Part shown: positions 48,431 to 63,547 of the stretch, piece after piece
Layout of the letters: every line of letters begins with the position of its first letter
Position numbering within the stretch: position 1 is the first letter of the stretch
Assembly (NCBI GenBank): GCA_035545475.1
Contig: DASZYI010000144.1
Coordinates: 15,306-79,305, forward strand
Direction of reading: 5' to 3'
Length of the DNA: 64,000 bases
Source of the DNA: Rhizomicrobium sp.
Lineage (GTDB): Bacteria; Pseudomonadota; Alphaproteobacteria; Micropepsales; Micropepsaceae
Translations under genes and position numbers: made by a program
Notes under the pieces: model-generated
Database searches by the model: none
What the model saw: only the letters and a program-made list of their open reading frames with translations
Told to the model about the DNA's origin: nothing

Positions 48431-48503
48431 GCGCGACAACATTCCTCGACGTCGGCGTCCCTCATCAATCCAGATTGTCGGTGCCGCCCGCCCCGGTCAA
48501 GCT

Positions 48504-48617
48504 TTTTGGCAAATTTGCTATATTTCCAAAATGCCAGACGTTGCTGCGCCGCAATAAGCCTCTGGGAAGGCTCCGGGCAGCTTTTGCCTTGACCAGATTT
48601 TTACAGACCTGTACAAA
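48504..48617. promoter_or_regulatory. Divergent MFS/acoA control region: operator B copies at 48504-48523 and 48598-48617; promoter TTGACC-N17-TACAAA (48589-48617)
   Basis: TTTTTACAG-AC-CTGTACAAA is an 8/9 palindrome overlapping the -10; TTTTGGCAA-AT-TTGCTATAT is a weaker copy. Confidence 0.65.
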
Positions 48618-48666
48618 TCATTCAATACCACAACATTTGCGAACCGTTCGGTTCTTGGGAGGCAAG

Positions 48667-49632: not shown

Positions 49633-49663
49633 CGGCATAGTCCGTTAATTCGGGAGCCCCTAT

Positions 49664-50671
49664 ATGCCTAAAAAGAGTTACCGCAAGGCCATAAACGAGG
49701 CCATCGCGCAAGAGATGCGGCGGGACACAACGGTCGTGGTAATTGGCGAAGATGTCGCCGGTGGACAAGGCGGCACCGGTGAAATCGACGCCTATGGCGG
49801 CGTCTTGGGTGTGACGAAAGGCTTGATCGGCGAATTCGGCGAAGATCGGGTCATCGATACGCCGATCACCGAGTCCGGCTTCATCGGTATGGCGGCCGGC
49901 GCCGCATGTACCGGACTTAGACCGGTCGTTGAATTGATGTTCGTGGATTTCATCGGCGTCTGTTTCGACCAGATATTCAACCAAGCAGCAAAGTTCCGCT
50001 ATATGTTCGGCGGAAAAGCTCGCACGCCATTGGTCATACGATCGATGATTGGCGGTGGGTTGCGCGCCGCGGCACAGCACAGCCAGACACTTCATTCGAT
50101 TTTTACGCATGTACCAGGCCTAAAAGTGGTCATGCCATCGAGCCCTTACGACGCCAAAGGGCTGCTCATTCAGGCTATTCGTGACGATGACCCAGTTATC
50201 TTCCTCGAGCACAAGACGCTTTATGACATCGAAGAGGACGTTCCTGACGGTAGCTATACGATACCTTTTGGCGAGGCGACGGCGACCCGCGAGGGCGATG
50301 ATGTGACGATTGTCGCGCTTTCCGCAATGGTACATCGTGCCAATGCCGTAGCCGACAAGTTGGCAAAAGAGAATATTTCCGTCGAAGTCATCGATCCCCG
50401 CACCACGTCACCATTTGATGAACATGCGGTGTTGGAAAGTATCTCGCGAACCGGCCGCTTGGTCATCGTCGATGAAGACACTCCACGCTGCAGCATGGCC
50501 AGCGATATCGCGGCATTGGCTGCTGAAAGAGGCTTTTCGTCGCTGACCGCGCCGGTGCTGCGAGTCACATGTCCCCATACGCCAGTTCCCTTCTCACCCA
50601 CGTTGGAGGACGCCTATATGCCGTCCGCGGCGCGCATCGAAACGGCCGTTCGGCAGTGTCTCGGTAGTTGA
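49664..50671 (+). CDS. acoB: TPP-dependent dehydrogenase E1 beta, AcoB type
   Basis: DTPITESG, ELMFVDF, AAQHSQ, FLEHK. Confidence 0.85.
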   Translation: MPKKSYRKAINEAIAQEMRRDTTVVVIGEDVAGGQGGTGEIDAYGGVLGVTKGLIGEFGEDRVIDTPITESGFIGMAAGAACTGLRPVVELMFVDFIGVCFDQIFNQAAKFRYMFGGKARTPLVIRSMIGGGLRAAAQHSQTLHSIFTHVPGLKVVMPSSPYDAKGLLIQAIRDDDPVIFLEHKTLYDIEEDVPDGSYTIPFGEATATREGDDVTIVALSAMVHRANAVADKLAKENISVEVIDPRTTSPFDEHAVLESISRTGRLVIVDEDTPRCSMASDIAALAAERGFSSLTAPVLRVTCPHTPVPFSPTLEDAYMPSAARIETAVRQCLGS

Positions 50672-50716
50672 TCGCTGCAAAAAGCAAGCTGAATAAATCA
50701 TTCTTGGAGATCACAG

Positions 50717-51832
50717 ATGACTTTGCATGCCGTCACGGTCCCAAAATGGGGGCTAGCGATGGAAGAAGGGCAAATCGTTCATTGGTATGTCGCCCCCGGG
50801 GCTCGCGTTTCCACTGGCGACGCGCTTGTGGACATCGAGACGCCGAAAATCACAAATACGTTGGAGGCTGAAGGGCCGGGAACAATTCGTCGCATTCTTG
50901 GCGCAGAGGGTGAGACCCTTCCGTGCGGACAAGTTATCGCGGTACTTGACGATGGGGAATCCGGCGAGCCCGACGTCGACGATTTCGTCAAGAATGCGAT
51001 TCTCAGCCTCGAGGCAAAACATCCCGAGGAAACTACTGGTAAAACGCTCAGGCCCGCTCTCGTTGACGTAGGCAGTGGCAGCCTAAATTACCTGGCGATG
51101 GGCGCACCCACGGATTTGTCGATCATACTGATCCATGGGTTCGGCGGAGACCTAAACAATTGGATGTTTAACCAGCCCGTGCTCGCAGCGGCAGGTCGTA
51201 CCATTTCTTTCGATCTGCCGGGGCATGGAGGATCGACAAAGACGGTGGGAAATGGATCGATCGACGAGTTAGCTTTGAGGATTTCCGTCGCTTTGAAATC
51301 CCTCCAACTCGAAAGATTCCACTTGGTCGGACACTCCCTCGGTGGTGCAGTCGCATCTAAGGTCGCCGCGTCTGTTCCCGGAAGCTGCGCATCCCTCACG
51401 CTGATCAGTTCCGCGGGCCTCGGAGAGGAGATCAACGGTGACTACCTCGAGGCGTTTGTCGTCGCAAAGCGGCGTAGGGAATTGCAGAAAGTTCTTGAAA
51501 GCCTGTTTGCGGACCCGTCCCTCGTTACATCTGATATGGCAGAAGAGATTTTGCGTGCGAAACGGTTAGATGGTGCCGAGGCCGCGTTACGCCAGGTTTT
51601 GGCAGCCAATTTCGCGGACTCCCGCCAGCTGTTTGGCCTGCGAGAGCAAATAATTCATCTCGACATTCCCATAATGACGATCTGGGGTGAAAGTGATCTG
51701 ATCATTCCGGCAACGCACAGCAACGGACTTCCCGGAAGTACTCAAGTGCTGGCGGAGACCGGACATATGGCACATATCGAAAAAGCGGCCGAGGTGAATA
51801 CCCTGATCGCCAAACATATTGCCGCGGCGTAG
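50717..51832 (+). CDS. acoC: AcoC-type protein: lipoyl domain fused to alpha/beta-hydrolase fold
   Basis: PKWGLAMEEG, IETPKI lipoyl Lys, HGFGGDLNNW, GHSLGG, GHMAH. Confidence 0.85.
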   Translation: MTLHAVTVPKWGLAMEEGQIVHWYVAPGARVSTGDALVDIETPKITNTLEAEGPGTIRRILGAEGETLPCGQVIAVLDDGESGEPDVDDFVKNAILSLEAKHPEETTGKTLRPALVDVGSGSLNYLAMGAPTDLSIILIHGFGGDLNNWMFNQPVLAAAGRTISFDLPGHGGSTKTVGNGSIDELALRISVALKSLQLERFHLVGHSLGGAVASKVAASVPGSCASLTLISSAGLGEEINGDYLEAFVVAKRRRELQKVLESLFADPSLVTSDMAEEILRAKRLDGAEAALRQVLAANFADSRQLFGLREQIIHLDIPIMTIWGESDLIIPATHSNGLPGSTQVLAETGHMAHIEKAAEVNTLIAKHIAAA

Positions 51833-51845
51833 TGAGGGCAGCCAT

Positions 51846-52448
51846 TCATTTAAACCGTTTCATGAACGGCGCAGGGCCATTGATATCGGACGGTAATATA
51901 GGCAACGGGACCGCGTCAGGAGGGAGTGGAACGCCGTCGGCGTTGAGGATCAATGACACGGCACAATAGTAACCCGCGAGAGCGACCAAATCTGCGGTGA
52001 TAGTATCGCCAAACCGAGCTCTGACGGAGTTGAAGACTTCATCCGAGATATGTCCACGGCATACAAGCTCGCTGACAAAGTCGAACACTTTGGCTTCATC
52101 CGCGTCCATTTCCGCGGGTCTGTACCCTCCGCCAATCGCGTCGCATTTGGCTCGATCCAAACCCGCTTCGATAGCGAGGCTGCTGTGAATGTGCCATTCG
52201 AATTGTGCAGTCCACGCGCGCGCCACAATTATGATGGCAAGTTCCTTGAGCTTTTTTGGCAATCCGCTCTCAAAACGCAAATACCCGCCAAGATGCTCAA
52301 AGGCCATGGCAAGTTTCGGACTCCTCAACAGAAGATTCGCCGGTCCGCCAATCGCGCCTCTGCTTTTCACCCATGCATCGCGGGCCTCGCGTTGCTCGTT
52401 GCTCATATCTCGTGGTTCGAGCGGACCAAACCTGTTGCCAGAGCTCAT
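51846..52448 (-). CDS. Carboxymuconolactone-decarboxylase/AhpD-like protein 2 (no CxxC)
   Basis: GPANLLLRSP, LPKKLKELAIIIVAR, FEWHIH. Confidence 0.85.
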   Translation of the reverse strand: MSSGNRFGPLEPRDMSNEQREARDAWVKSRGAIGGPANLLLRSPKLAMAFEHLGGYLRFESGLPKKLKELAIIIVARAWTAQFEWHIHSSLAIEAGLDRAKCDAIGGGYRPAEMDADEAKVFDFVSELVCRGHISDEVFNSVRARFGDTITADLVALAGYYCAVSLILNADGVPLPPDAVPLPILPSDINGPAPFMKRFK

Positions 52449-52513
52449 TTAGAAACCTCCAATCCCGGCGGAATCGCTTGCGATCTATGAATCACTCTTT
52501 TCTCGGGTCCTCT

Positions 52514-52533
52514 TATTTACTACTCTGTAAAAA
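52514..52533. promoter_or_regulatory. Operator B copy between divergent CMD2 and Rieske 2 (TATTTACTA-CT-CTGTAAAAA)
   Basis: Right half-site is a perfect match to the consensus. Confidence 0.55.
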
Positions 52534-52578
52534 AGTATTCTGCCGGCCGGCGGCAGTGCTGACAAGCAGGTGATTGAA

Positions 52579-53988
52579 ATGAAAAAACTGCTAACTTCTT
52601 CCAATCACCCGACGCGCAAAGATCGATGCGACGCGATTTCCTATCAGGAACTGCTCGATCGAGACACGATGCCGGTGCCGGCAGCCCTCCGCGAACAATC
52701 GGAACCCGATTTGGGAACGAGTGGAATTCCGATCGAACACTATACCAGCCAGGATTATTTCGATCGCTCGGTCGGCAGGATGTGGCTAAAGACCTGGCAA
52801 ATGGCATGCCGCGAACAGGATATTCCGGAAGTGGGAAATTTTGTTCTCTACGAAGTGGTCGGAAAATCCCTCATCATCGTACGTTCCGGGGCTGATCAGA
52901 TCAAAGCGTTGCACAACTCCTGTCTGCACCGGGGTCGCAAGCTCGTGACACTGGAAGGCAGCAAGTCCGACTTCCACTGCCCCTTTCATGGGCTCGTCTG
53001 GAAGAACGACGGTACGTTTCTGGAAAATCCGATCCAATGGGACTTCCCGCAGTGTCCGGCTGAGGAGATGCGGCTGCCGGAAGCCAAAGTCGCCAGATGG
53101 GGCGGATTTGTGTTCATCAATTTCGACCTCGATGCCCCCTCACTCGAAAGTACCCTAGGACCTATCCCAAAACACTTCGAAAGATGGGACATAGAAAATC
53201 GTTACAAGGCCGCGCATGTGGGTAAAATCATAGCGTGCAATTGGATGGTCGCACTTGAGGCTTTCATAGAGGCACACCATTCACTCACGACCCATCCCCA
53301 AATACTCATGTGTTCCGGAGATGCCAATGCCCAGCACGATATCTTTAGCGATCACGTAACGAGGATGATAAGCGCGAAGGCTACGCCGAGTCCGTTCCTC
53401 GGCGACCGGATTGTTACGGAGGACGAGATAGTGCGGTGCATGGTCGGTCGCGTTCGTGGCGGACGTGGTTTCGTAGACCAGGACTCTTTCCCAAAGGCGG
53501 AAAAAATCGTGCCAGAAGAGACAACCGCTCGGGCCTATCTGGCCAGCTTTGCTCGGGCCGCTCTCAGGTCGGAGACAGGGATCGATCACAGCATTGCGTC
53601 CGACGCCGAACTTGGAGACTCCATTCTCTACAATGTCTTTCCGAACTTGACCTTATGGGGAGGCTTCTTGCCCAATTTGGTCTATCGTTGGAGACCAAAT
53701 GGCCTCGACCATGCATCTTGCCTGATGGAAGTAATGATATTGAGACCACGCTCAAAGGGAACTGCACCAAAATCATCGCAGTTCCATTTGTTGAAAGAGG
53801 ATGAAGCTTGGGCGGATGCGGAAGAACTCGGTGGCTTGGGCGCAATTATCGATCAAGACATGGGGAATATGCCATTCGTTCAGCAGGGTCTCGTCGCTGC
53901 CGTTGGCAGAACCATCGAAGTCGGCAAATATTCGGAGAGTCGCATACGGGCACATCACATTACCTTGACGAGGTATGTGGAGGGTTGA
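52579..53988 (+). CDS. Rieske non-heme iron oxygenase alpha subunit 2 (paralog of 40532-41917)
   Basis: SCLHRG, CPFHG, EAFIEAHHSLTTHP, DQD. Confidence 0.92.
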   Translation: MKKLLTSSNHPTRKDRCDAISYQELLDRDTMPVPAALREQSEPDLGTSGIPIEHYTSQDYFDRSVGRMWLKTWQMACREQDIPEVGNFVLYEVVGKSLIIVRSGADQIKALHNSCLHRGRKLVTLEGSKSDFHCPFHGLVWKNDGTFLENPIQWDFPQCPAEEMRLPEAKVARWGGFVFINFDLDAPSLESTLGPIPKHFERWDIENRYKAAHVGKIIACNWMVALEAFIEAHHSLTTHPQILMCSGDANAQHDIFSDHVTRMISAKATPSPFLGDRIVTEDEIVRCMVGRVRGGRGFVDQDSFPKAEKIVPEETTARAYLASFARAALRSETGIDHSIASDAELGDSILYNVFPNLTLWGGFLPNLVYRWRPNGLDHASCLMEVMILRPRSKGTAPKSSQFHLLKEDEAWADAEELGGLGAIIDQDMGNMPFVQQGLVAAVGRTIEVGKYSESRIRAHHITLTRYVEG

Positions 53989-54310: not shown

Positions 54311-54724
54311 ATGCCTGCCGATATGACAGATGCGAAGCCCGGGGTAACGCAAATCCTGGCGGCCATCGTCGAGACTTCGCACGACGCGATTATCAGCAAA
54401 GATCTGAACGGCATCATTTCAAGTTGGAACAGGAGCGCTACGCATCTCTTTGGATACGCTCCTGATGAGATCATCGGTCGCCCGGTTACGATTCTCATTC
54501 CGCCGGATAGGCAAGATGAGGAAACACACATCCTTGGCATGGTTCGTCGCGGGGAGCGTGTGGATTCATACGAGACCATTCGGCAGCGCAAGGATGGAAG
54601 CCTTGTAGAGGTCTCCCTAACAGTATCGCCGATCAAGGATTCGGAAGGCCGAGTTGTCGGCGCTTCTAAGATCGCACGCGACATCACAGAATTGAAAAAA
54701 GCGAGGAAACAACAAGAGCTTCTA
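54311..54724 (+). pseudogene. PAS domain of a sensor kinase, truncated just before the expected kinase H-box
   Basis: AAIVETSHDAIISKDLNGIISSWN...SKIARDITELKKARKQQELL, then unrelated sequence. Confidence 0.8.
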
Positions 54725-54725
54725 C

Positions 54726-55031
54726 GGCGGCGTCGATCTGGTGTTCGACGTCATCGGCGGCGAGATCGGCAAGCAATCCGCACGTCTCATTCGAGCTGGA
54801 GGAACGGTCGTGTCCATCGTCGGTCCGCCCGTGCCGCGGCCCGATGACGGTTTGGCGGTCGACTTCGTTGTCGAGACAGATCGCGCTCAACTGACCGAGA
54901 TCGTCAACCTGGTGCGGGATGGACGATTGCGGACGAACATCGGCGATGTCTCATCTCTCGATGATGCTATCGCTGCGTTAAACCCGACCGGGCGACGCAA
55001 GGGGAAGACGATTATCCGCGTTCGTCAGTAA
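54726..55031 (+). pseudogene. C-terminal fragment of an NADP-dependent oxidoreductase (zeta-crystallin/MDR family)
   Basis: GGVDLVFDVIGGEI...LVRDGRLRTNIG...RKGKTIIRVR; no N-terminal part. Confidence 0.8.
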
Positions 55032-55496: not shown

Positions 55497-56021
55497 TCAA
55501 ATTTTGCGACGCGGTTTTTTTGCTTTGCGTCGCCGCTTGCCATTTGACGTCGCGGTATGAGCTCCAGACGGAAGCTCTGATATGCGCTTGACGACTTTAC
55601 CCCAATCCAAATTCAGAACGCGTTTCAAGGCAGCATAGTCTTCGCCGCCGATCCGGCTGCGCAATACGTCTTCCAAATCGCGAATCGCATTACGGGCGAA
55701 CTCGCGAATTCCCGTCGAGCGTTGCGTAAAGCCAAGAATCACGGAACGCCCGTCCGCCGGATCGTCGTGTGCGAGAAGGATCTTCTGCGCGATGAGTTGG
55801 TTCGCGATATGCCGTATCGCCTGACGCGAAAGGCGCATCTTCCGTGCGATATCGCTCGGCCTGGTCACGCCTGCCGAAACATAAAGCACCATCATGGACT
55901 GGGACTTGTTCAATGGACGAAAGCCGCCGTCCTTCACAAGGTTCTGCAGCCCGTTATCGAACCAGTCCCAGCCTTCCAGCAGGCCTGACATCAGGAAGGG
56001 GTGTCGGTCGATCCGCGGCAT
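55497..56021 (-). CDS. MarR-family regulator
   Basis: RPSDIARKMRLSRQAIRHIANQL...DDPADGRSVIL winged HTH. Confidence 0.88.
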   Translation of the reverse strand: MPRIDRHPFLMSGLLEGWDWFDNGLQNLVKDGGFRPLNKSQSMMVLYVSAGVTRPSDIARKMRLSRQAIRHIANQLIAQKILLAHDDPADGRSVILGFTQRSTGIREFARNAIRDLEDVLRSRIGGEDYAALKRVLNLDWGKVVKRISELPSGAHTATSNGKRRRKAKKPRRKI

Positions 56022-56107: not shown

Positions 56108-57355
56108 TCAAACCACGGGCGAGTTCGGTGGTAGTCCGATCAAAGCACGACCATGAAGCTCCGAAGCGCCATCTAGATCGTAGACGACATGGCTCGACAT
56201 CACATTGATGTCCCTGAGCGCCCGTTGCAGGGGATTGTCCAGAAAGTGTGCGCTTGAGCCGCTCGCCTCGCATGCCAGACGGATGGCTGTTCGACACAAG
56301 TCCATGGCGTAGGCGATCTGGATTCTGAGGCTTATGCGTTCCTCGACCTCCGCCAGCTTCCCGCTCTGGCCCAAAGCTACGTTTTTGCGTCCGGCATCGC
56401 GCACCAGCAATTCGGCCGTCCGCGTTTTCACGTCGGCGAGCGCGAGCCGCATCTGGGCGGCGGGTTTCTCCGCCTGCTTCAACTCGGTTCCGAACACCAC
56501 TCTTTCTGCAAGACGTGCTCGGAAATGTTCGACAGCCGCGCGTGCTGTGGCGACGGCAGGAAGCGCTGCGGTCAGCGCAAGAAACGGGAGCATCGGCATT
56601 TTGTAAATCGGATTGTCATGAAGCAGCGCGCCCGGCGCCCGCCCCTCCCGCATGTGACCGAAATTGAGCACACGATGCCCCGGTATGAAGGCATCTTCGA
56701 TGACGATGTCGTTGCTACCCGTACCGATCATGCCGTCGACGTGCCAGGTATCCAAAATCCGGACATCCGACACCGGCAAAACGAAAAACAGTACGGCCGG
56801 AGAGCTGCCACCATCTGGATCGAGTCCGGTCGCCAGCACCCAATCGGCGTGCATCACGCCGGTCCCCCACTTCCAGTGACCGGTCAGGCGATAGCCGCCG
56901 CTAACCTTCGTGACTTTTCCGGGTGGCTGAGTAACGCCCGGCGCAATGATATAAGGATACTGTCCGAAGATTTCTGCCTGCGCTTCTTCGGGAAACTGCG
57001 ACATCATCCAGTTGTGTTCGACGCAGAACGACGTCACCCAGCCGGTCGACGAACAACCTTCGCCAAGAGGAAGCATGGCGTTCACAAAGGTTTCAACGTC
57101 GAATTCCAGCCCGCCATATCTTTTGGGCACGAAGTGGTAAAACACGCCCGCGCGCCGTATCGCATTCCATGCCTCATTCACTGGACGGCGCAACCGCTCC
57201 GCTTCGCGGGTATGACCGGCGAGCAGCGGTTTGAGGGCAGTCGTGCGCTCGACCAGCATCGCTGGCGTCATTTGGGCAAGCTCGGCCCGGTTAAGCCAAT
57301 CGCCGGGTGGCGGGCTTTCCGGCCTGATGGTTTTGGCGGTGTCAACGGGGGGCAT
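56108..57355 (-). CDS. Two-component flavin-dependent monooxygenase, oxygenase subunit (group D, HsaA/HpaH-like, acyl-CoA dehydrogenase fold)
   Basis: PKRYGGLE, GCSSTGWV, GHWKWGTG, DTWHVDGMIGTGSND, NPLQRALRD, SH. Confidence 0.88.
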   Translation of the reverse strand: MPPVDTAKTIRPESPPPGDWLNRAELAQMTPAMLVERTTALKPLLAGHTREAERLRRPVNEAWNAIRRAGVFYHFVPKRYGGLEFDVETFVNAMLPLGEGCSSTGWVTSFCVEHNWMMSQFPEEAQAEIFGQYPYIIAPGVTQPPGKVTKVSGGYRLTGHWKWGTGVMHADWVLATGLDPDGGSSPAVLFFVLPVSDVRILDTWHVDGMIGTGSNDIVIEDAFIPGHRVLNFGHMREGRAPGALLHDNPIYKMPMLPFLALTAALPAVATARAAVEHFRARLAERVVFGTELKQAEKPAAQMRLALADVKTRTAELLVRDAGRKNVALGQSGKLAEVEERISLRIQIAYAMDLCRTAIRLACEASGSSAHFLDNPLQRALRDINVMSSHVVYDLDGASELHGRALIGLPPNSPVV

Positions 57356-57375
57356 CGAACGCAATCTCCATATTG

Positions 57376-57457
57376 GGAAAATATTTTACAATATGCGCCG
57401 CAGACCCGCAACCGCATACGTTTGCCCCATGACAAGAAAGGACAAATTTTTTACTAT
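57376..57457. promoter_or_regulatory. Divergent promoters TTGCGG-N17-TAAAAT (minus) and ATGACA-N17-TACTAT (plus), each overlapped by operator C
   Basis: GGAAAATATTTTAC 57376-57389; GACAAATTTTTTAC 57441-57454; ideal palindrome GTAAAATATTTTAC. Confidence 0.7.
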
Positions 57458-57487: not shown

Positions 57488-58600
57488 ATGACCGACGACA
57501 GCAAGCTCATGCCCCTTTTTGATCCTCTTAAGATTGGCAATTTGCATCTTCCCCATCGTATTGCGATGGCGCCGATGACCAGGTTCCGATGCAACGAAGA
57601 CGGGATTCCGGCGCCATATGTAAGCGAATACTATGCGCAGCGCAGTTCCGCCGCGCTCATCGTGTGCGAATCCGTCTACACGATTCCCAGCGGCCGGATC
57701 GCGCCGCTGGCGGGAGGCCTGATAACCGAACCCCAGCGCACGGCCTGGGCGGCTGTTGCCTCCGCTGTGCACGCAAAGGGCGGACGGATCTTCCTGCAGC
57801 TCATTCATGGCGGACGCGTCTCTCATCCGCTGCTTCAACCCGGTGGCGTGCAACCCATTGCCCCCTCCGCCGTGCTCGCGGACGACAAGGTCCGGCTTGC
57901 GCAGGGATTCGTTGCACCGGTCGTGCCGCGCGCAATGGAAATCTCCGAAATCCACGAGGTGATCGAAAGTTTCGCGGTAGCGACGCGTCACGCGGCGGAG
58001 GCGGGGTTTGACGGTGTCGAGTTGCATGCGGGCAATGGATATCTGCCCTGCCAATTCCTGTCGTCGAACACCAATCTCCGGCAGGACGACTACGGCGGAA
58101 CGCTCACGAACCGCCTGCGCTTTGTTATGGAAACCCTTGAGGCGATGTGCGCCGTACGTAGTCCTGACTTCGTGGGCGTCAAGATATCGCCGGGTTTTCG
58201 CTATCACGATGCTCGCGATGAGGCGCCTGAGGAAACCTACACAGAACTGGCCAAGGCCCTTGGCAAAATGGACCTCGCTTATACCCATATTCAAATTCCG
58301 CTGGATTTCATTCAACCCGAAGGTGCTGCGTTCGATCCCGTTGCCTTGGTACGCAACCACTATCGCGGCGTTTTGCTCGCGGGCGGCAATCTCGATCGCC
58401 GCAGCGCGGCGCACATGATCGCTACAGGTGCTGCCGATGTTGCAGTGTTCGGGCGGCGGTTCATCGCTAATCCGGATCTCCCCGAGCGATTCCGCCTGGG
58501 AGCCGGCGAGACCGAACTCGATCCGGATACGCTGCATGTTCCGGGCCACAAAGGCTACATCGACTATCCTACGCTGCGTGTAGCCGGCGAACCGCATTGA
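57488..58600 (+). CDS. Old Yellow Enzyme / alkene reductase 1 (canonical H-x-x-N-x-Y)
   Basis: MAPMTR, GFDGVELHAGNGYL, NLRQDDYGG, GRRFIANPDLP, GYIDYP; start ATG 57488. Confidence 0.93.
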   Translation: MTDDSKLMPLFDPLKIGNLHLPHRIAMAPMTRFRCNEDGIPAPYVSEYYAQRSSAALIVCESVYTIPSGRIAPLAGGLITEPQRTAWAAVASAVHAKGGRIFLQLIHGGRVSHPLLQPGGVQPIAPSAVLADDKVRLAQGFVAPVVPRAMEISEIHEVIESFAVATRHAAEAGFDGVELHAGNGYLPCQFLSSNTNLRQDDYGGTLTNRLRFVMETLEAMCAVRSPDFVGVKISPGFRYHDARDEAPEETYTELAKALGKMDLAYTHIQIPLDFIQPEGAAFDPVALVRNHYRGVLLAGGNLDRRSAAHMIATGAADVAVFGRRFIANPDLPERFRLGAGETELDPDTLHVPGHKGYIDYPTLRVAGEPH

Positions 58601-58610: not shown

Positions 58611-58635
58611 CCGCGCCCGCTAGAAGCGGACGCGG
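58611..58635. terminator. Hairpin between convergent OYE1 and TBDR3
   Basis: CCGCGCCCGC-TAGAA-GCGGACGCGG, 9/10 bp. Confidence 0.45.
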
Positions 58636-60824
58636 CCCTCAAGCGAGATCGTGCGCGTCTCATCGAGGAAAACCACGCCCGTCGCCGGCGTCGAAAGCGG
58701 CCACAGATAGCTGAACGATTCGGTCAGATTGTTGGTAAGATTCTTTCCGACCAACGCCACGGACCATCTGTCATCCGTTTGCGCCAGCTCGATGCGCGTA
58801 TCGAACTTGGCGTAGCTGCCCTGCGTTCCATAATACGGACTGAGATCGCTTGCTGTTGCGAATGTGCTGCGGAACGAAACGATGCCGGTCAATGACAGTT
58901 TCAGATCGTCATTAAGAGGCTCGTGGAAATTGCCCTGCACATTCCCGCTCCATTTGGAAGCGCCCGGCAATGGGGTTCCTGCGATGTTGTTGGTCGTTGC
59001 CGAGCAGGGTGGCTGTGGCTGGGTGGCAAGACAGGCCGCGCCCGGAAAGTCGTCATAGGCGGCCTCCAAATAGGCGGCAGATCCAGAAAGCTCCAGATTG
59101 TCCAGTGCCAGCCACTGTAGCGACGCTTCAACGCCTTTGCCTGTTGCCCGCGCGGCGTTTTTCGTGATGAACGTTGCCTGGGACGGATCGTAGTCGGATA
59201 CCTGAAGATCGCGAAACTTGGTATCATAAAGGTCTATATCGGCGACCACCCGTCCATCGAACAAGGTGGCCTTGGCGCCGATTTCATAGTTGGTCGATTT
59301 CTCGTCGCCGAAGACAAAGGAATCCGGCGTCACCGTTCGGGTGTTGCTTACAAAACCACCGGCCTTGGACCCCCGGCCATAAGTTGCATACACCATAATG
59401 CCGGGCTGGATGTCGTATTGCACCGTGGCGGACGGATCGAGATTGTCTTCCGTCAACGTGGTCAGAGGAATGGATCGAGGCGCGGCAATCGGTATGCCGA
59501 AATCGAGATACTCATCGAAGGCTGCCCGCTTATGATTTTCGGTGTAACGGAGGCTGCCGAGGATGCGCAGGTCCTCTGTGACATGGAACGTCCCCTGGCC
59601 AAAGAGCGACCATGTGGAGGAATGCTGACGGAAGGCGATATGGGTCTGACCCACCAGCGTGTGGCCAAAGAGATCGTAACGCGAAGGATTGAGCAGGTTG
59701 TAGTCGCTTTGGTCGTAATAGGCTCCAACGATGTATTCGAAACGCTCTCCCGTCGGCGACAACAGGCGCACTTCCTGCGAGACCTGGTTGAACTTTTCGT
59801 TGAAGGTCGAAAGCCAACTTTCCGGATCGCCGGCCGACCCGCCCACAAATTTGTTGTCCTTGAAAGCCGAGAAGCCAGTGATCGACGTTAGCGTGAAATC
59901 TCCGAGCTGAAGATTTGCAGTGGTCGAGCTGTTGTAAGAATCCTGGGTGTCGGTTTCGGGCGTTCCAAACGGCGAGGCCGCGTCTTTCTCGTCGTCGAGA
60001 ACCTGAGGCGCCGCAGGCGCCACCCGAATCTGGTTGGTGCCAAGCGTGCGGAAGTCTGCATACTCGAACTTCGTCGTTATGTTGAAATAGTCCGTCGGCT
60101 CGTATTTGAGCGAAATTCGGCCAAGGTTGTCTCGCAACCTCGGGTCGTTTGTGCCCGTAGCCGTATTGCCAATGTAACCGTCTTCATAGGTGAATTTGAG
60201 CGCGATCCTGGCGCTCAGCGTGTCCGTAAGAGGACCCGAAACATAGCCAAACGCATCGATACCGCTGCGTGAGAAATTGTAGGCGGCCGTGGCACTGGCC
60301 TCAAAATGATCTGTCGGGCCTGCGGTGATGATGTTCACCGCCCCGGCAGCGGTGTTCTTGCCGAGAAGTGCTCCTTGCGGGCCGCGCAGCACTTCGATGC
60401 GCTCCACATCGAAAAAGGGGGCCATGAACTGACGATTGCGGCCACCATATATGCCATCCTCGTACAGGCTCACTGATTGTTCGAAAGCGTAATTGGCCGC
60501 TGGTGAACCGAAACCGCGGATGTAAATGGCGTCGTTACCGGGCGAAGGCTGCACGAGAAGATTGGGAACGTAATTCATAAGCGCCTTGAAATCGCTCGTA
60601 TGGAAGTTCTCGAGCTGGCGTCCCTGGAAGACCTCCATGGAAATCGGGACGTCTTGGACATCCTGTTCGCGCTTCTGGGCGGTGACGACAACGGTTTCGA
60701 TTCCCTCGGTAACCGCAGATGGTGTCGGGACATCTTGCGCCGGCTGCGCAGAGGCCGACATTGGCCAACCTGCGACCGCGATTGCCACCGTTGTCAACAA
60801 TGTCGGCAATACCGTCTTGTTCAT
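58620..60824 (-). CDS. TonB-dependent receptor 3
   Basis: Signal peptide, ETVVVTAQKR, RIEVLRGPQGALLGKNTAAGAVN, C-terminal Phe. Confidence 0.93.
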   Translation of the reverse strand: MNKTVLPTLLTTVAIAVAGWPMSASAQPAQDVPTPSAVTEGIETVVVTAQKREQDVQDVPISMEVFQGRQLENFHTSDFKALMNYVPNLLVQPSPGNDAIYIRGFGSPAANYAFEQSVSLYEDGIYGGRNRQFMAPFFDVERIEVLRGPQGALLGKNTAAGAVNIITAGPTDHFEASATAAYNFSRSGIDAFGYVSGPLTDTLSARIALKFTYEDGYIGNTATGTNDPRLRDNLGRISLKYEPTDYFNITTKFEYADFRTLGTNQIRVAPAAPQVLDDEKDAASPFGTPETDTQDSYNSSTTANLQLGDFTLTSITGFSAFKDNKFVGGSAGDPESWLSTFNEKFNQVSQEVRLLSPTGERFEYIVGAYYDQSDYNLLNPSRYDLFGHTLVGQTHIAFRQHSSTWSLFGQGTFHVTEDLRILGSLRYTENHKRAAFDEYLDFGIPIAAPRSIPLTTLTEDNLDPSATVQYDIQPGIMVYATYGRGSKAGGFVSNTRTVTPDSFVFGDEKSTNYEIGAKATLFDGRVVADIDLYDTKFRDLQVSDYDPSQATFITKNAARATGKGVEASLQWLALDNLELSGSAAYLEAAYDDFPGAACLATQPQPPCSATTNNIAGTPLPGASKWSGNVQGNFHEPLNDDLKLSLTGIVSFRSTFATASDLSPYYGTQGSYAKFDTRIELAQTDDRWSVALVGKNLTNNLTESFSYLWPLSTPATGVVFLDETRTISLEGRVRF

Positions 60825-60907
60825 GGCATCCCTCCCGCGGTCAAAGCTCTTATGGCTTCGATCTTGTTTGCGTCTCGTGGAAGTCTACGAGCACACGGCG
60901 AATGTTG

Positions 60908-61022
60908 GCAAAATATTTTACATTGTCAATCTGCGTTCGAAAATAAGATTTCGAAGTATCTCGAGGGTCGCGTTCGGCCAGGAACCAGTTGACAGAATTG
61001 TCCGAAGGTAAAATAATTTCAC
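60908..61022. promoter_or_regulatory. Divergent TBDR3/OYE2 control region with operator C copies (60908-60921, 61008-61021) and promoter TTGACA-N17-AATAAT (60989-61017)
   Basis: GCAAAATATTTTAC (13/14) and GTAAAATAATTTCA (11/14). Confidence 0.7.
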
Positions 61023-61041
61023 AACCTGTGGAGGTTCACCG

Positions 61042-62154
61042 TTGCGCAACTACCGCTTTTTGCTGTCGGCCGGCCGGGTTGGCGACATCGTGCTGCGCAA
61101 CCGCATGATCATGTCGCCGATGACCCGCTTCCGGGTCACCGAAACCGGGGTACCTAGCGATCTCAACATCATTTATTACGGCCAGCGCGCTTCGGCGGGG
61201 TTGATCATCAGCGAGGGCACATACAGCGAACCGAAAGGGCGGCTAACGCCCCGCACGGCTGGCCTACACACCGAAGAACACGTTTCAGCCTGGCGTGCGA
61301 TCACAGACGCGGTGCACGAAAAGCAGGGGCGCATGTTTGTGCAATTGTGTCATGGAGGCCGCGTATCTCATCCCCTGCTCCAGCCCGATGGCGAACTCCC
61401 GGTTGCCCCATCCGCTATCGCCAAAACAGGACAGGTAAGGATTCGCGAGAATGAGACCGAGGGCGTGATTAAGGTCGATGCGCCGATCCCCAGAGCGTTA
61501 GACCTGCCGGAAATCACTTCCATAGTCGAAGAATTCGGGCGCGCTACCGAACGCGCGGTTACGGCCGGATTTGATGGTGTCGAACTGCATGCGGCCAGTG
61601 GCCTGTTGCATCAGCAATTTCTTACCACGACTGCCAACGTCCGCTCCGATCGCTACGGAGGATCGCCTTTGAACCGGTGCCGCTTTGTCATCGAGACACT
61701 CGAAGCTATGTCAGCCGTTCGCGGATCGGGTAGAGTCGGCATAAAGATCGCACCGAACTTTGCCTACAACGGGACCGATATGCCCATGCGCGATATCATC
61801 GACACGTATTCGCTTCTCGTCGAAGAGCTGAAACGTCTCGACCTTGGATACGTGCACGTGCAGTACCCACCGTGGGGCCTGTTTTCCGGGCCCAAAAGTT
61901 TTAACCCGATAATGTTCGTCCGCCCGTTGTACAAGGGCACCTTGATCGGCGCAGGCGAGTTCAACCGCGATACAGCTGAGGATATGCTGGCAGCAGGCCA
62001 TAGCGACTTCATAGCGTTTGGCCGACGTTTTATTGCCAACCCGGATCTTCCGGCACGCATTGCCGCCGGTGCTGAAGAAAATGCCTGGGATGAGGCGACT
62101 CTCTATACACCGACGCCCGAGGGATTTATCGACTATCCAACTCTGAGCCACTGA
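61042..62154 (+). CDS. Old Yellow Enzyme 2, non-canonical active site (H-x-x-S-x-L)
   Basis: MSPMTR, GFDGVELHAASGLL, NVRSDRYGG, GRRFIANPDLP, GFIDYP; TTG start after GGAGG. Confidence 0.9.
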   Translation: MRNYRFLLSAGRVGDIVLRNRMIMSPMTRFRVTETGVPSDLNIIYYGQRASAGLIISEGTYSEPKGRLTPRTAGLHTEEHVSAWRAITDAVHEKQGRMFVQLCHGGRVSHPLLQPDGELPVAPSAIAKTGQVRIRENETEGVIKVDAPIPRALDLPEITSIVEEFGRATERAVTAGFDGVELHAASGLLHQQFLTTTANVRSDRYGGSPLNRCRFVIETLEAMSAVRGSGRVGIKIAPNFAYNGTDMPMRDIIDTYSLLVEELKRLDLGYVHVQYPPWGLFSGPKSFNPIMFVRPLYKGTLIGAGEFNRDTAEDMLAAGHSDFIAFGRRFIANPDLPARIAAGAEENAWDEATLYTPTPEGFIDYPTLSH

Positions 62155-62439: not shown

Positions 62440-62522
62440 CCGCCGGATGCCCCGTGGGGTCCGATGCGGTCCTGTAAAGGACCGGCTCGTAACCGTGTTG
62501 CTCTGATGGAGGATGCGATATG
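62440..62522 (+). ncRNA. ROSE-type RNA thermometer in the 5' UTR of hsp20
   Basis: GUGUUGCUC-UGAUG-GAGGAUGC pairs the UUGCU motif with the SD, leaving the hallmark bulged G; upstream hairpins include GGUCCU-GUAA-AGGACC. Confidence 0.8.
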
Positions 62523-62981
62523 AGAAACACGATCGACATGACGGCTTTGGGCCGTTCCGCTATTGGCTTTGAGCGGATGTTCGACCTGCTCCGAGCCAAC
62601 GAAGGCGAAAGCACCGATACCTACCCGCCTTATAACATCGAAAAACTCGGCGAGGATCATTACCGGATCGCGCTTGCGGTTGCGGGATTCGCCGAAAGTG
62701 ACCTCGCCGTCACCCAGGAGTCCAACCTTCTGACAGTGACGGGGAACAGAACCGAGGAACCGGACAAGGGAACCGCGTATCTCTACCGCGGGATTGCCGG
62801 GCGGCCTTTTACGCGGCAGTTCAGCCTTGCGGATTATGTGCATGTCCGCGGCGCCACGCTTTCCAACGGTCTGTTGACCATCGACCTGGAGCGCGAACTG
62901 CCGGAGGCCATGAAACCTCGGCGGATTTCGATAGGTTCGGAAGCGGCGAAGGCTGTTTCCGAGCGACGCGCGGCAGCCTAA
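62520..62981 (+). CDS. ibpA: Small heat-shock protein, class A (IbpA-like)
   Basis: IGFERMFD, YPPYNIEK, YRIALAVAGF, YLYRGIA.R.F.RQF.LA, NGLLTIDL. Confidence 0.9.
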   Translation: MRNTIDMTALGRSAIGFERMFDLLRANEGESTDTYPPYNIEKLGEDHYRIALAVAGFAESDLAVTQESNLLTVTGNRTEEPDKGTAYLYRGIAGRPFTRQFSLADYVHVRGATLSNGLLTIDLERELPEAMKPRRISIGSEAAKAVSERRAAA

Positions 62982-63055: not shown

Positions 63056-63547
63056 ATGAACATGCGCAGTATCATTCCCTGGGGCCGGGAGACCGCGGTC
63101 GCCGCCACACGTGATATGGAAGAGCCAAGCCCGTTCCTGAGCCTGCACCGCCAGGTCAACCGGCTGTTCGATGACTTCTTCCGGGACTTCGACATGCCGC
63201 TTTCGCGCGATGGCTGGTCCGCCCACTGGCCGAGCGTTGAAGTCAGCGAGGACGATCGCAACGTGAAGGTCGTTGCCGAACTGCCCGGTCTGGACGAGAA
63301 GGACATTGACGTCACATTGCGCGACGGAATCCTGACGCTCCAGGGCGAGAAGAAACGGGAAACAGATGGCGCGACCTATAGCGAGCGCTGGCACGGACGG
63401 TTTTCGCGGGCCATCCAGCTTGGCCCGGAAGTCGATCCCGACAAGGTACAGGCATCATTTGCCAAGGGCGTTCTCACCGTAACGCTGGAAAAACGCCCGG
63501 AGGCGCAAAGCAAGGTCAAGCGAATAGCAGTCAATCGTGCTGCTTGA
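63056..63547 (+). CDS. Small heat-shock protein, class B (Hsp20)
   Basis: SLHRQVNRLFDDFF, WPSVEVSE, AELPGLDEKD, SERWHGRFSR, ASFAKGVLTV. Confidence 0.92.
   Translation: MNMRSIIPWGRETAVAATRDMEEPSPFLSLHRQVNRLFDDFFRDFDMPLSRDGWSAHWPSVEVSEDDRNVKVVAELPGLDEKDIDVTLRDGILTLQGEKKRETDGATYSERWHGRFSRAIQLGPEVDPDKVQASFAKGVLTVTLEKRPEAQSKVKRIAVNRAA

What the first reader, a model, noticed from the sequence alone, without database searches (positions are those of the whole stretch)
61042..62154. Old Yellow Enzyme lacking both the catalytic Tyr and the Asn, co-regulated with a canonical paralog
DNA at 61588-61605 (CAT GCG GCC AGT GGC CTG) encodes HAASGL where OYEs have H-x-x-N/H-x-Y; the paralog at 57488 has HAGNGY. 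The gene is otherwise intact, with FMN-binding motifs, SD, promoter and operator. The Tyr is the proton donor for ene-reduction, and its replacement by Phe distinguishes the isomerase from the reductase forms of fungal EasA. A reductase plus a non-reducing partner (isomerase, desaturase, nitro- or flavin reductase) in one regulon suggests new chemistry.
Basis: partly seen in the sequence, partly recalled or inferred. Interest (0 to 1): 0.7.

Follow-up and report, generated by a model that had tools for sequence, protein, structure and literature searches.

The report
Conserved tyrosine-less Old Yellow Enzyme

Summary
ORF 61042-62154(+) is a full-length class I Old Yellow Enzyme (OYE) that reads HAASGL where OYEs have H-x-x-N/H-x-Y. 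The paralog at 57488 reads HAGNGY.

This is not an error or decay:
- Two independent soil-metagenome runs carry the same sequence.
- All 36 homolog clusters at 50-78% identity lack the Tyr (L/F/H/N/G) and keep Ser.
- pN is far below pS.
- The AlphaFold model is confident (pLDDT 94).

Ser in place of Asn is common in ordinary Tyr-containing relatives (HAASGY). About 10% of other OYE cluster representatives also lack the Tyr.

Co-regulation is supported. A 17-bp palindrome, TGTRAAAWWWTTTYACA, occurs upstream of both OYE genes, overlaps the -10 box of this gene, and recurs in orthologous loci.

The "reductase plus non-reducing partner" reading is not supported:
- The Tyr-less OYE is the constant OYE of a conserved module (MarR + TonB-dependent receptor (TBDR) + HsaA-like flavin monooxygenase). 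The "canonical" paralog appears in only two loci.
- Sister modules fill the same slot with an unrelated canonical H/H/Y OYE.
- The paralog group branches inside the Tyr-less radiation.

Best reading: a working hydride-transfer reductase that takes its proton from solvent or needs none. Rivals are a flavin-reductase component and an isomerase/aromatase. It is a new variant of a known kind, of moderate interest.

The parts
61042..62154 (+). Tyr-less class I Old Yellow Enzyme gene (370 aa, TTG start)
   Evidence: ORF. PF00724 match 1.2e-71 over residues 13-346. Best PDB relatives are class I ene-reductases at E 1e-88 to 1e-90. AF2 model pLDDT 94.2, TM 0.93 to PETNR/NemA.
61588..61605 (+). Altered catalytic motif H183-A-A-S186-G-L188 (canonical H-x-x-N/H-x-Y)
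   Evidence: Sequence read. Aligned opposite HSANGY/HAANGY in 6s32 and 6uff. Identical in two independent runs.
61609..61611 (+). Codon of H190, the clade-typical His two residues after position 188 (Pro in Tyr-containing relatives)
   Evidence: H in 32 of 37 clade members; P in 74 of 77 other relatives and in 6 of 6 paralog-group members. It covaries with residue 188.
61030..61034 (+). Shine-Dalgarno sequence GGAGG, 7 nt upstream of the TTG start
   Evidence: Read directly from the sequence.
60989..61017 (+). Sigma-70-like promoter TTGACA-17-AATAAT (11 of 12 matches) for the Tyr-less OYE gene
   Evidence: Consensus scan. This is a consensus match only, not proof of function.
61007..61023 (.). 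Operator-like palindrome GGTAAAATAATTTCACA overlapping the -10 box
   Evidence: One mismatch to TGTRAAAWWWTTTYACA. An equivalent proximal site exists in L001 (9960-9976) and L002 (929-945).
60906..60922 (.). Distal operator-like palindrome TGGCAAAATATTTTACA in the TBDR/OYE divergent intergenic region
   Evidence: (D3). It overlaps a minus-strand promoter-like site at 60911-60882.
58620..60824 (-). TonB-dependent receptor (TBDR), divergently transcribed from the Tyr-less OYE gene
   Evidence: Plug and beta-barrel domains. Orthologs at 47-72% identity lie next to the Tyr-less OYE in L001, L002, L007, L021 and L023.
57488..58600 (+). Paralogous OYE with HAGNGY (370 aa; 47% identical to the Tyr-less OYE)
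   Evidence: P0050. It has His at the OYE1-Tyr375 position and Ala at the PETNR-Tyr68 position.
57374..57390 (.). Operator-like palindrome TGGGAAAATATTTTACA between the HsaA-like gene and the paralogous OYE gene
   Evidence: A weaker second site lies at 57439-57455 (4 mismatches).
56108..57364 (-). HsaA/HPAH-C2-like acyl-CoA-dehydrogenase-fold flavin-dependent monooxygenase (oxygenase component); probable true start is the ATG at 57355
   Evidence: PF08028 match. PDB 2rfq (3-HSA hydroxylase oxygenase) 1.2e-54; XiaF and HPAH C2. NF045629 HsaA scores 252 bits, below its 450-bit cut-off. The start codon was inferred from the sequence.
55497..56021 (-). MarR-family regulator, 86 nt downstream of the monooxygenase gene; candidate binder of the palindrome
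   Evidence: PF12802 match at 23.8 bits, below the 27-bit cut-off. Orthologs at 59% identity in L001 and L023. The binding role is inferred.

Best explanation
The gene encodes a functional FMN-dependent NAD(P)H oxidoreductase. It belongs to a small, conserved, Tyr-less branch of the classical (class I, PETNR/NemA-like) Old Yellow Enzymes, found mainly in uncultured soil Alphaproteobacteria.

It is the OYE component of a repressor-controlled catabolic module. The module contains a MarR regulator, a TonB-dependent receptor (TBDR) and an HsaA/C2-like flavin-dependent phenol hydroxylase.

Most likely mechanism (inferred): NAD(P)H reduces the bound FMN as in any OYE, with H183 and S186 holding the nicotinamide or substrate carbonyl. 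The reduced flavin then passes a hydride to an oxidised intermediate of the imported compound, either a quinone or an activated enone. The second proton comes from solvent or is not needed. This would resemble morphinone reductase and the PETNR Y186F mutant.

Loss of three aromatic side chains opens a larger, less polar pocket for a bulky substrate. In PETNR numbering these are Y68, W102 and Y186; here they are T69, C103 and L188.

Shown here: intactness, conservation, purifying selection, fold, gene neighbourhood and shared operator. Inferred: substrate class, proton source and the identity of the regulator.
For: **Intact and selected**
- PF00724 match is full length.
- FMN-site residues are invariant in the clade: P26, T28, Q101, H183, K235, G305, R328.
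- AF2 model has pLDDT 94.2 and pTM 0.94. Foldseek gives TM 0.90-0.93 to NostocER1, CtOYE, PETNR and NemA.
- pN 0.14-0.26 against pS 0.62-0.77 versus orthologs, similar to the neighbouring genes.
- The sequence is identical in two runs.

**Clade-wide trait**
- Position 188 is L13/F12/H7/N3/G2 across 37 clusters and never Y. S186 is invariant.

**Tyr is dispensable in this enzyme class**
- PMC3659409 states this for PETNR.
- About 10% of other OYE representatives lack it.

**Module membership**
- TBDR orthologs lie next to the gene in the window, L001, L002, L007, L021 and L023.
- An HsaA-like gene lies within 5 kb in the window, L001, L007 and L023. It is directly adjacent on the same strand in L021 (OYE then ACAD2 then hydrolase) and L005 (ACAD2 then OYE).

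**Same slot filled by a canonical OYE elsewhere**
- L032 carries MarR, TBDR, an HGAHGY OYE, the HsaA-like gene and DUF3237 in a row. L030, L036, L037 and L048 are similar.
- This argues that the module needs ordinary OYE reductase chemistry.

**Shared regulation**
- The palindrome is found at 57374, 60906 and 61007 against a chance expectation of 0.06.
- It is conserved at the equivalent intergenic regions of L001 and L002.
- L023 and L021 each have their own shared motif in the corresponding regions (sequences printed).
Against: - No biochemical data exist for any member of the clade, and no RNA run contains the gene.
- In OYE1 itself, loss of Tyr196 cripples alkene reduction (Kohli and Massey 1998, cited in PMC4303823). 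In EasA a Tyr-to-Phe change switches reductase to isomerase. Retained ene-reduction is therefore not guaranteed.
- The substrate is unknown. The quinone/enone proposal rests only on neighbourhood logic (hydroxylases, a Flavodoxin_2 quinone-reductase-like gene in L032, GST genes in L001 and L002).
- The H-type members (L003, L025) and P0009 sit beside other oxygenases (FAD_binding_3, P450) and not the HsaA-like gene. L004 shows no such neighbour.
- From the HsaA-like gene's side, most orthologous loci have no OYE nearby (29 of 50 loci of at least 6 kb).
Confidence: 0.5

Rival explanations
1. The Tyr-less OYE is the reductase component of the neighbouring HsaA/C2-like two-component monooxygenase. 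It oxidises NAD(P)H and hands reduced flavin to the oxygenase, so it needs neither the alkene-protonating Tyr nor the substrate-binding Asn.
For: - HsaA, XiaF and HPAH-C2 relatives are oxygenase components that depend on a separate flavin reductase (family assignment; the dependence is established knowledge).
- No Flavin_Reduct, FMN_red or nitroreductase gene appears in the modules of the window, L001, L021 or L023.
- The OYE and the oxygenase gene are adjacent on one strand in L021 and L005.
- OYE-less versions of the module (L038 type) carry an NADPH-dependent FMN reductase instead.
- Across loci, 12 have only an OYE, 7 have only an FMN_red/Flavodoxin_2 gene and 2 have both.
Against: - My literature searches found no OYE-family flavin reductase serving a two-component monooxygenase.
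- The FMN-binding residues are fully conserved, which suggests a tightly bound prosthetic flavin.
- L032 and L048 carry both an OYE and a flavodoxin-like reductase.
- H-type clade members sit next to single-component FAD_binding_3 hydroxylases, and P0009 sits next to a P450. Neither needs a flavin reductase.
- Most HsaA-like orthologs have neither partner nearby, and the counts include redundant loci.
- L005 has a nitroreductase-family gene next to the pair.
Confidence: 0.2
2. The enzyme does hydride-transfer-only, redox-neutral or oxidative chemistry. One option is E/Z or positional isomerisation, as in Phe-type EasA. Another is desaturation or aromatisation of a cyclic enone to the phenol that the HsaA-like hydroxylase then attacks. 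On this reading the canonical paralog is the true reductase.
For: - The proton-donor position is never Tyr in the clade, and 12 of 37 members have Phe, the EasA-isomerase state (EasA in PMC4303823).
- The S/F(L)/H and N/Y/P states differ by single-nucleotide changes. They appear to have toggled within one superclade (paralog group nested with 78% NJ bootstrap support), as expected of a functional switch.
- A phenol hydroxylase downstream would fit an aromatising step.
- OYEs are reported to carry out desaturation and dismutation.
Against: - Position 188 is variable (L/F/H/N/G), so no specific new catalytic residue has replaced Tyr.
- The paralog needed as the 'reducing partner' is absent from most modules.
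- Sister modules use a canonical H/H/Y OYE in the same slot.
- Tyr loss does not abolish reduction in PETNR-type enzymes.
- Nothing computed here tests the chemistry.
Confidence: 0.12
3. The protein is catalytically dead or decaying: a pseudo-enzyme, a ligand-binding protein or a relic of duplication.
For: Two of the three textbook catalytic residues are missing. No transcript evidence was found.
Against: - Purifying selection is strong, and as strong as for the neighbouring genes.
- 64 columns are invariant across a clade that diverges to 50% identity, including all FMN-site residues.
- The fold is predicted with confidence.
- The gene has its own promoter, Shine-Dalgarno sequence and operator.
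- Synteny is conserved in at least six loci.
Confidence: 0.04

Closest known systems
Classical (class I) bacterial and cyanobacterial OYE ene-reductases: NostocER1 (6uff), CtOYE (6s32), PETN reductase, NemA
   Same: Same fold and length, 40-43% identity and TM 0.90-0.93. Same FMN-site residues and the first His of the substrate-binding pair. It also has the PETNR-type long beta-hairpin at residues 131-146.
   Different: - Ser replaces the second Asn/His, and Leu replaces the Tyr proton donor.
- The PETNR Y68 and W102 equivalents are T69 and C103.
- Clade-specific invariant residues are N42 and E/D306. R133, Y242 (the OYE1 F250 position), R329 and E346 are invariant too but shared with the paralog group.
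Morphinone reductase and the PETNR Y186F mutant (OYEs that work without the Tyr proton donor)
   Same: Both are class I bacterial OYEs in which the Tyr is absent or dispensable and solvent can supply the proton. PETNR is covered by PMC3659409. That morphinone reductase has Cys191 at this position is from my own knowledge (Barna 2002; Messiha 2005) and was not checked here. Morphinone reductase is a sequence relative at E 4e-79.
   Different: Morphinone reductase keeps the His/Asn pair and has Cys at the Tyr position. This clade has Ser plus L/F/H/N/G there. No activity data exist for this clade.
HAASGY / HAATGY 'alkene reductases' of Pseudomonas, Burkholderia, Paraburkholderia, Paludisphaera and others (uncharacterised as far as I could find)
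   Same: They are the nearest Tyr-containing relatives (45-50% identity). They share the Ser/Thr in place of Asn/His and K235 in place of Arg.
   Different: They keep Tyr188, Pro190, the PETNR-Y68 equivalent and Gly306. They lack R133, Y242, R329, E346 and the 6-residue hairpin extension.
EasA isomerase form (fungal ergot-alkaloid OYE with Phe for Tyr)
   Same: Loss of the proton-donor Tyr within an otherwise intact OYE. One third of this clade has Phe at that position (PMC4303823).
   Different: EasA is a fungal enzyme in an ergot-alkaloid biosynthetic cluster. It retains the rest of the triad, and its function was shown by mutagenesis. Here the residue is variable, the gene sits in a bacterial catabolic module, and no isomerase evidence exists.
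Flavin-reductase components of two-component monooxygenases (HsaB, HPAH C1, SsuE-type FMN reductases)
   Same: Same genomic position: next to an HsaA/C2-like oxygenase, in a module that otherwise lacks a flavin reductase. OYE-less versions of the module carry an FMN_red gene.
   Different: The fold and family are entirely different (TIM-barrel PF00724 against Flavin_Reduct/FMN_red). I found no precedent for an OYE in this role.

Membership tests
Old Yellow Enzyme family (PF00724), classical/class I branch | TIM-barrel Oxidored_FMN domain over the full length, with nearest relatives among class I enzymes | tested here: met
   PF00724 1.2e-71 over residues 13-346. Best PDB hits are class I ene-reductases at E 1e-88 to 1e-90. 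AF2 model TM 0.90-0.93 to NostocER1, PETNR and NemA.
Old Yellow Enzyme family (PF00724), classical/class I branch | FMN-binding residues (OYE1 Thr37, Gln114, Arg243, Arg348 equivalents) | tested here: met
   T28, Q101, K235 (Lys for Arg, as in most near relatives) and R328 are invariant in the clade. The positions were assigned by alignment to 6s32 and 6uff and by my knowledge of OYE1 numbering.
Old Yellow Enzyme family (PF00724), classical/class I branch | His/Asn or His/His pair that binds the substrate's electron-withdrawing group | tested here: not met
   H183 is present, but the second position is S186, invariant in the clade. The same Ser/Thr is common in Tyr-containing relatives.
Old Yellow Enzyme family (PF00724), classical/class I branch | Conserved Tyr proton donor (OYE1 Tyr196 / PETNR Tyr186) | tested here: not met
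   L188 here. The position is L/F/H/N/G in all 37 clade clusters and Tyr in 83 of 83 other close relatives.
Old Yellow Enzyme family (PF00724), classical/class I branch | NAD(P)H-dependent reduction of activated C=C bonds | not testable with these tools
   Needs enzyme assays.
EasA-type OYE isomerase | Phe in place of the proton-donor Tyr, with the rest of the triad intact, in an ergot-alkaloid cluster, and demonstrated isomerase activity | tested here: not met
   The window protein has Leu, and Ser in place of Asn. The context is a bacterial TBDR/MarR/HsaA-like module. EasA features are from PMC4303823. Activity was not testable.
Flavin reductase component of a two-component monooxygenase (HsaB/C1/SsuE types) | Flavin_Reduct (PF01613) or FMN_red (PF03358) domain | tested here: not met
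   The only Pfam match is PF00724. This excludes membership but not analogous function.
Flavin reductase component of a two-component monooxygenase (HsaB/C1/SsuE types) | Encoded beside the oxygenase component and supplying it with reduced flavin | tested here: inconclusive
   Adjacency holds in L021 and L005, and the genes lie within 5 kb in the window, L001, L007 and L023. Many oxygenase orthologs lack any OYE nearby, and some loci have both an OYE and a flavodoxin-like reductase. Flavin transfer is not testable here.
MarR-type repressor regulon shared with the paralog | A common palindromic operator in the promoter regions of the co-regulated genes, conserved in orthologous loci | tested here: met
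   TGTRAAAWWWTTTYACA occurs at 57374, 60906 and 61007, 3 sites against 0.06 expected. It occurs in both equivalent intergenic regions of L001 and in L002. It also occurs directly upstream of the MarR ortholog in L023 (1706-1722). Binding by the MarR protein itself was not tested.

The most novel reading that the evidence does not exclude
In this OYE superclade the triad state is an evolutionary switch between two activities. The Tyr-less state (S/L-or-F/H) would stop after hydride transfer and act as an isomerase or aromatising desaturase. It would make the phenol that the adjacent HsaA-like hydroxylase then hydroxylates. The N/Y/P state of the paralog would be the ordinary reductase. An alternative novel reading is that the Tyr-less OYE is the first OYE-type flavin-reductase component of a two-component monooxygenase.
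Probability: 0.15. Interest if true: 0.75.

Novelty: new variant of a known kind. Interest (0 to 1): 0.45.

Why it matters
Physiological roles are unknown for almost all Old Yellow Enzymes. The H-x-x-N/H-x-Y triad is routinely used to recognise "real" ene-reductases.

This work finds a naturally conserved, selected lineage that lacks two of the three triad residues. It has a fixed genomic partnership with a TonB-dependent importer, a MarR repressor and its operator, and an HsaA-like phenol hydroxylase. That gives a concrete handle for assigning a native function.

It also provides a natural experiment on how far the catalytic Tyr is needed in class I OYEs. The residue state appears to have toggled within one superclade.

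If the enzyme is simply a reductase, it widens the sequence space for biocatalyst mining, with a large and less polar pocket. If it serves the monooxygenase as a flavin reductase, or acts as an isomerase or aromatase, it would be a new role for the family.

Tried and rejected
1. **Sequencing or assembly error: rejected.** Contigs from runs X1 and X2 are identical over the motif, and the trait is shared by 36 homolog clusters.
2. **Pseudogene or decay: rejected.** pN is far below pS, there are 64 invariant columns and the fold is predicted with confidence.
3. **'Relocated tyrosine': rejected as a compensation.** Y242 sits at the OYE1-Phe250 active-site position and is invariant in the clade. 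However, the Tyr188-containing paralog group also has it (4 Y and 2 H of 6). Outside the clade, Tyr188 loss does not correlate with Tyr at 242 (2 of 21 against 24 of 198).
4. **H190 as the universal replacement acid: rejected as general.** Members with G or N at 188 have P or S at 190.
5. **Strict monophyly of the Tyr-less group: not supported.** NJ bootstrap support is 21%. The superclade including the paralog group is supported at 99%.
6. **OYE versus FMN-reductase mutual exclusivity around the HsaA-like gene: inconclusive.** Counts are 12, 7, 2 and 29, with redundant loci.
7. **Literature precedent: none found.** I searched for an OYE acting as flavin-reductase component, or an OYE in a TBDR/MarR module. 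Nor did I find a description of this Tyr-less clade.
8. **Confirming morphinone reductase's Cys191 through P0183: failed.** P0183 is not morphinone reductase, so that point rests on my own knowledge.
9. **GTDB genome scan: little gained.** It found only two close relatives, both MAGs.
10. **RNA evidence: none available**.
11. **Model coordinates were not available.** I could not measure distances from H190, Y242, R133 or E306 to the flavin.
Full report
**1. What is there**

One search lists an ORF at 61042-62154 (+), 370 aa, starting with TTG at the first possible start after an in-frame stop. The DNA at 61588-61605 is CAT GCG GCC AGT GGC CTG. It reads H183-A-A-S186-G-L188 in the context GFDGVELHAASGLLHQQFL.

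- A GGAGG Shine-Dalgarno sequence lies at 61030-61034, 7 nt before the start.
- A strong sigma-70-like promoter, TTGACA-17-AATAAT, lies at 60989-61017.
- The protein matches Pfam PF00724 (Oxidored_FMN) over its whole length (1.2e-71).
- Its best solved relatives are classical Old Yellow Enzyme (OYE) ene-reductases: CtOYE 6s32, NostocER1 6uff, GsOYE, then NemA, morphinone reductase and PETN reductase (E 1e-78 to 1e-90).
- In those alignments S186 and L188 lie opposite the N and Y of HSANGY/HAANGY. The FMN-site motifs are in place: PMTR, VQLxH, GxKxxP, FGRRFIANPDLP.
- The second OYE gene, at 57488-58600, reads HAGNGY.

**2. Not an error, not decay**

The window comes from a soil metagenome. Contigs from two separate runs (X1, X2) cover the motif with no differences.

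A search of 5.8 billion proteins found a graded series of relatives. Every one of the 36 clusters at 50-78% identity lacks the Tyr. Every relative below that tier has it.

| Position | State in the 37 clade clusters |
|---|---|
| 188 | L 13, F 12, H 7, N 3, G 2 |
| 186 | always Ser |
| 190 | H 32, P 4, S 1 |

L, F or H at 188 always goes with H190. G or N at 188 goes with P or S at 190.

Codon comparisons with the orthologs in L001, L002 and L007 give pN 0.14-0.26 against pS 0.62-0.77. Synonymous sites are saturated. These values resemble those of the neighbouring genes.

An AlphaFold2 model built on the clade alignment is confident (pLDDT 94.2, pTM 0.94). It superposes on NostocER1, PETNR and NemA at TM 0.90-0.93. 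H183 sits at the end of a strand (179-184), S186 to L188 lie in the loop that follows, and H190 lies in a short helix (189-194).

**3. How unusual is it?**

Less unusual than the finding suggests on two counts.

- Ser or Thr in place of the Asn/His is the majority state among the nearest Tyr-containing relatives (HAASGY, HAATGY). These include proteins that NCBI names 'alkene reductase' in Pseudomonas, Burkholderia, Paraburkholderia and Paludisphaera.
- Among representatives of 50%-identity clusters, 21 of 219 other OYEs also lack Tyr at the aligned position. Most have Phe.

The literature held here states that the Tyr is generally the proton donor. It also states that in PETNR the Tyr is not essential and water can take its role (PMC3659409). 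From my own knowledge, morphinone reductase naturally has Cys at this position.

The whole Tyr-less clade collapses into a single 50%-identity representative (P0026). Only two GTDB genomes hold a close relative, and both are uncultured Alphaproteobacteria/Rhodospirillaceae MAGs. I found no paper describing the clade.

**4. Other changes in the active site**

I compared the clade with 83 close relatives.

- The equivalent of PETNR Tyr68 is lost (T/E/A/S instead of Y).
- The Trp/Met at the PETNR W102 position is Cys, Ala, Gly or Val.
- Gly306 becomes Glu or Asp.
- A six-residue extension of the beta-hairpin is present (140-145).
- N42, R133, Y242, R329 and E346 are invariant.

Y242 aligns with OYE1 Phe250, a recognised active-site position (PMC3915301; the mapping is my own alignment). 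I considered Y242 as a relocated proton donor and rejected it as a specific compensation. The Tyr188-containing paralog group also carries it. Outside the clade, Tyr188 loss does not correlate with Tyr at 242.

Together the changes remove three aromatic side chains from the pocket. This suggests a larger, less polar substrate site. That is an inference, since I had no coordinates.

**5. The 'canonical' paralog**

It is canonical only in the triad. All six members of its group have His at the OYE1-Tyr375/PETNR-Tyr351 position and Ala at the PETNR-Tyr68 position. They share R133, R329 and E346 with the Tyr-less clade, and Y242 in four of the six (H in two).

Neighbour-joining trees with 200 bootstraps give:

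| Grouping | Bootstrap support |
|---|---|
| Tyr-less clade plus paralog group as one superclade | 99% |
| Paralog group monophyletic | 100% |
| Paralog group sister to one Phe-type subgroup (P0029-P0036) | 78% |
| Strict monophyly of the Tyr-less proteins | 21% |

So either Tyr was lost twice or it was regained. S to N, F to Y and H to P are each single-nucleotide changes. The state looks evolutionarily labile. A maximum-likelihood analysis is still needed.

**6. Regulation**

- In the window it occurs three times and nowhere else, against a chance expectation of 0.06.
  - 57374-57390, between the HsaA-like gene and the paralog.
  - 60906-60922, in the TBDR/OYE intergenic region.
  - 61007-61023, overlapping the -10 box of the Tyr-less OYE promoter.
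- In L001, a 1.15-Mb contig of an uncultured alphaproteobacterium, two sites lie in each of the two equivalent intergenic regions. Another lies upstream of a FadH-like OYE and a FAD_binding_2 gene pair.
- In L002, two sites lie in the TBDR/OYE intergenic region. Others lie upstream of GST/CoA-transferase genes and an aldolase gene.
- In L023 a copy lies just upstream of the MarR ortholog.
- L023 and L021 each show their own shared motif in the corresponding regions (visible in the sequences printed).

Co-regulation of the two OYE genes with the receptor and the monooxygenase is thus well supported at the sequence level. That the adjacent MarR (55497-56021) is the binding protein is inferred.

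**7. Gene neighbourhood**

The window order is MarR(-), HsaA-like monooxygenase(-), OYE paralog(+), TonB-dependent receptor (TBDR)(-), Tyr-less OYE(+).

The monooxygenase has the acyl-CoA-dehydrogenase fold. It is most similar to the oxygenase components HsaA (2rfq, 1e-54), XiaF and HPAH C2. It scores below the NCBIfam HsaA cut-off (252 against 450 bits). I therefore call it HsaA-like and not HsaA.

Around Tyr-less OYEs elsewhere:

| Locus | Neighbourhood |
|---|---|
| L001 | Same five genes, plus a group II intron |
| L002 | Orthologous receptor, divergent |
| L007 | Receptor ortholog and an HsaA-like gene within 6 kb, among SDR, ECH, ACAD, SnoaL and glyoxalase genes |
| L021/L022 | MarR divergent, then OYE, HsaA-like and alpha/beta-hydrolase on one strand, with receptors beside |
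| L023 | Receptor divergent, MarR, HsaA-like (73%), FAD_binding_2; DUF3237 overlapping the OYE stop |
| L026 | Receptor divergent, MarR downstream |
| L005 | HsaA-like gene immediately upstream |
| L003, L025 (His-type) | A receptor immediately upstream, FAD_binding_3 hydroxylases nearby |
| P0009 | Follows a P450 gene with overlapping stop and start |
| L004 | No such neighbour |

The canonical paralog is present only in the window and L001.

**8. The view from the monooxygenase**

A metagenome scan with the HsaA-like protein returned 75 loci. The recurrent core is HsaA-like + MarR + receptor, often with DUF3237.

- An OYE is present in some loci, but there it is an unrelated, canonical HGAHGY/HCAHGY OYE (about 32% identity). 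Examples are L030-L033, L036, L037 and L048. In L032 the order is MarR, receptor, OYE, HsaA-like, DUF3237.
- Other versions (L038 type) have no OYE. They carry an arylsulfatase and an NADPH-dependent FMN reductase.
- Counting loci of at least 6 kb that hold the HsaA-like gene: 12 have only an OYE, 7 have only an FMN_red/Flavodoxin_2 gene, 2 have both and 29 have neither. Many loci are near-duplicates, so this is inconclusive.

**9. Interpretation**

The module looks like uptake and hydroxylation of a phenolic compound. It has a receptor, and sometimes a sulfatase that would release a phenol. The OYE supplies reducing chemistry.

The same slot can be held by a textbook H/H/Y OYE. In most genomes the Tyr-less OYE is the only OYE in the module. 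The simplest reading is that it still does an OYE reductase job. It would transfer a hydride from FMNH2 to a quinone or activated enone made from, or on the way to, the hydroxylase's substrate. The proton would come from solvent, as accepted for PETNR-type enzymes. I give this about 0.5.

The alternatives:

| Reading | Confidence | Basis |
|---|---|---|
| Oxygenase's flavin reductase | about 0.2 | Attractive because the modules lack any other reductase; no precedent found; contradicted by loci holding both kinds and by members next to single-component hydroxylases or a P450 |
| Dead protein | about 0.04 | See rival 3 |

**10. Verdict**

- Co-regulation is supported.
- The inference of 'new chemistry' from a reductase/non-reductase pair is not supported by the comparative genomics, though it is not excluded.

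This is an uncharacterised, conserved variant of a well-known enzyme family with an unusually informative genomic context. It is worth an enzymologist's bench time, but it is not a categorically new system.

Noticed in passing
window 57488-58600 (+): The 'canonical' paralog has His at the OYE1-Tyr375/PETNR-Tyr351 position (TLHVP) and Ala at the PETNR-Tyr68 position. So do all five of its orthologs. The database gene call for it (P0050, 462 aa) looks over-extended at the N-terminus. ATG 57488, preceded by GGAGG, fits better.
   Followed up: partly
L001 5569-7008 (-): A group II intron reverse transcriptase (RVT_1 + GIIM) is inserted between the OYE paralog and the TonB-dependent receptor. The cluster is otherwise syntenic with the window.
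   Followed up: no
window 54311-55031 (+): Two probable gene remnants lie just downstream of the MarR gene's 3' end. One is a PAS-domain ORF (54311-54847) with no recognisable output domain. The other is an overlapping 96-aa ORF (54741-55031) that looks like the C-terminal end of a Zn-dependent quinone oxidoreductase.
   Followed up: no
window 62520-62981 and 63056-63547 (+): Two tandem small heat-shock-protein-like genes (alpha-crystallin type, judged by eye from the translations) lie directly downstream of the Tyr-less OYE. In L001 and L002 the corresponding place holds a GST and other catabolic genes.
   Followed up: no
L023 9169-9636; L002 8594-9067; L032 8223-8696; L038-type loci: DUF3237 (PF11578, function unknown) recurs in the HsaA-like/TBDR/MarR module. 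In L023 it overlaps the stop codon of the Tyr-less OYE gene. In L032 it directly follows the HsaA-like gene. It is absent from the window.
   Followed up: partly
L038 6191-13459 (and near-identical L039-L041, L045, L074): A variant of the module has the order MarR, HsaA-like, arylsulfatase, TonB-dependent receptor, NADPH-dependent FMN reductase, MarR. This suggests aryl-sulfate esters as imported substrates for this monooxygenase family.
   Followed up: partly
L023 about 7918-7932 and 3626-3640; L021 about 7940-7960 and 7300-7320: More divergent loci lack the TGTRAAAWWWTTTYACA palindrome. Each instead has its own motif shared between the OYE-proximal and the receptor/monooxygenase-proximal intergenic regions (TTGACAAWGTCAA in L023; TTGACTAAATKGC in L021). 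This was seen by eye only.
   Followed up: no
window 40532-53988: Upstream lies a broader catabolic island. It holds two Rieske oxygenase alpha subunits (40532-41917, 52570-53988), a second TonB-dependent receptor (42388-44796), CMD, TetR, SDR and MFS genes, and an acetoin-dehydrogenase-like E1 alpha/beta plus a lipoyl-alpha/beta-hydrolase fusion (48415-51832).
   Followed up: partly
window about 1-22000 versus 22000-64000: G+C content drops from about 0.59-0.65 to about 0.53-0.57 near 22 kb. The GC skew changes sign at the same place.
   Followed up: no
P0039-P0120 (HAASGY group), position 328: Many of the nearest Tyr-containing relatives lack the FMN-phosphate Arg of the FGR motif (S/A/G at position 328, for example FGSAFLANPDLP in Burkholderia). 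The Tyr-less clade and the paralog group keep it as RR.
   Followed up: no
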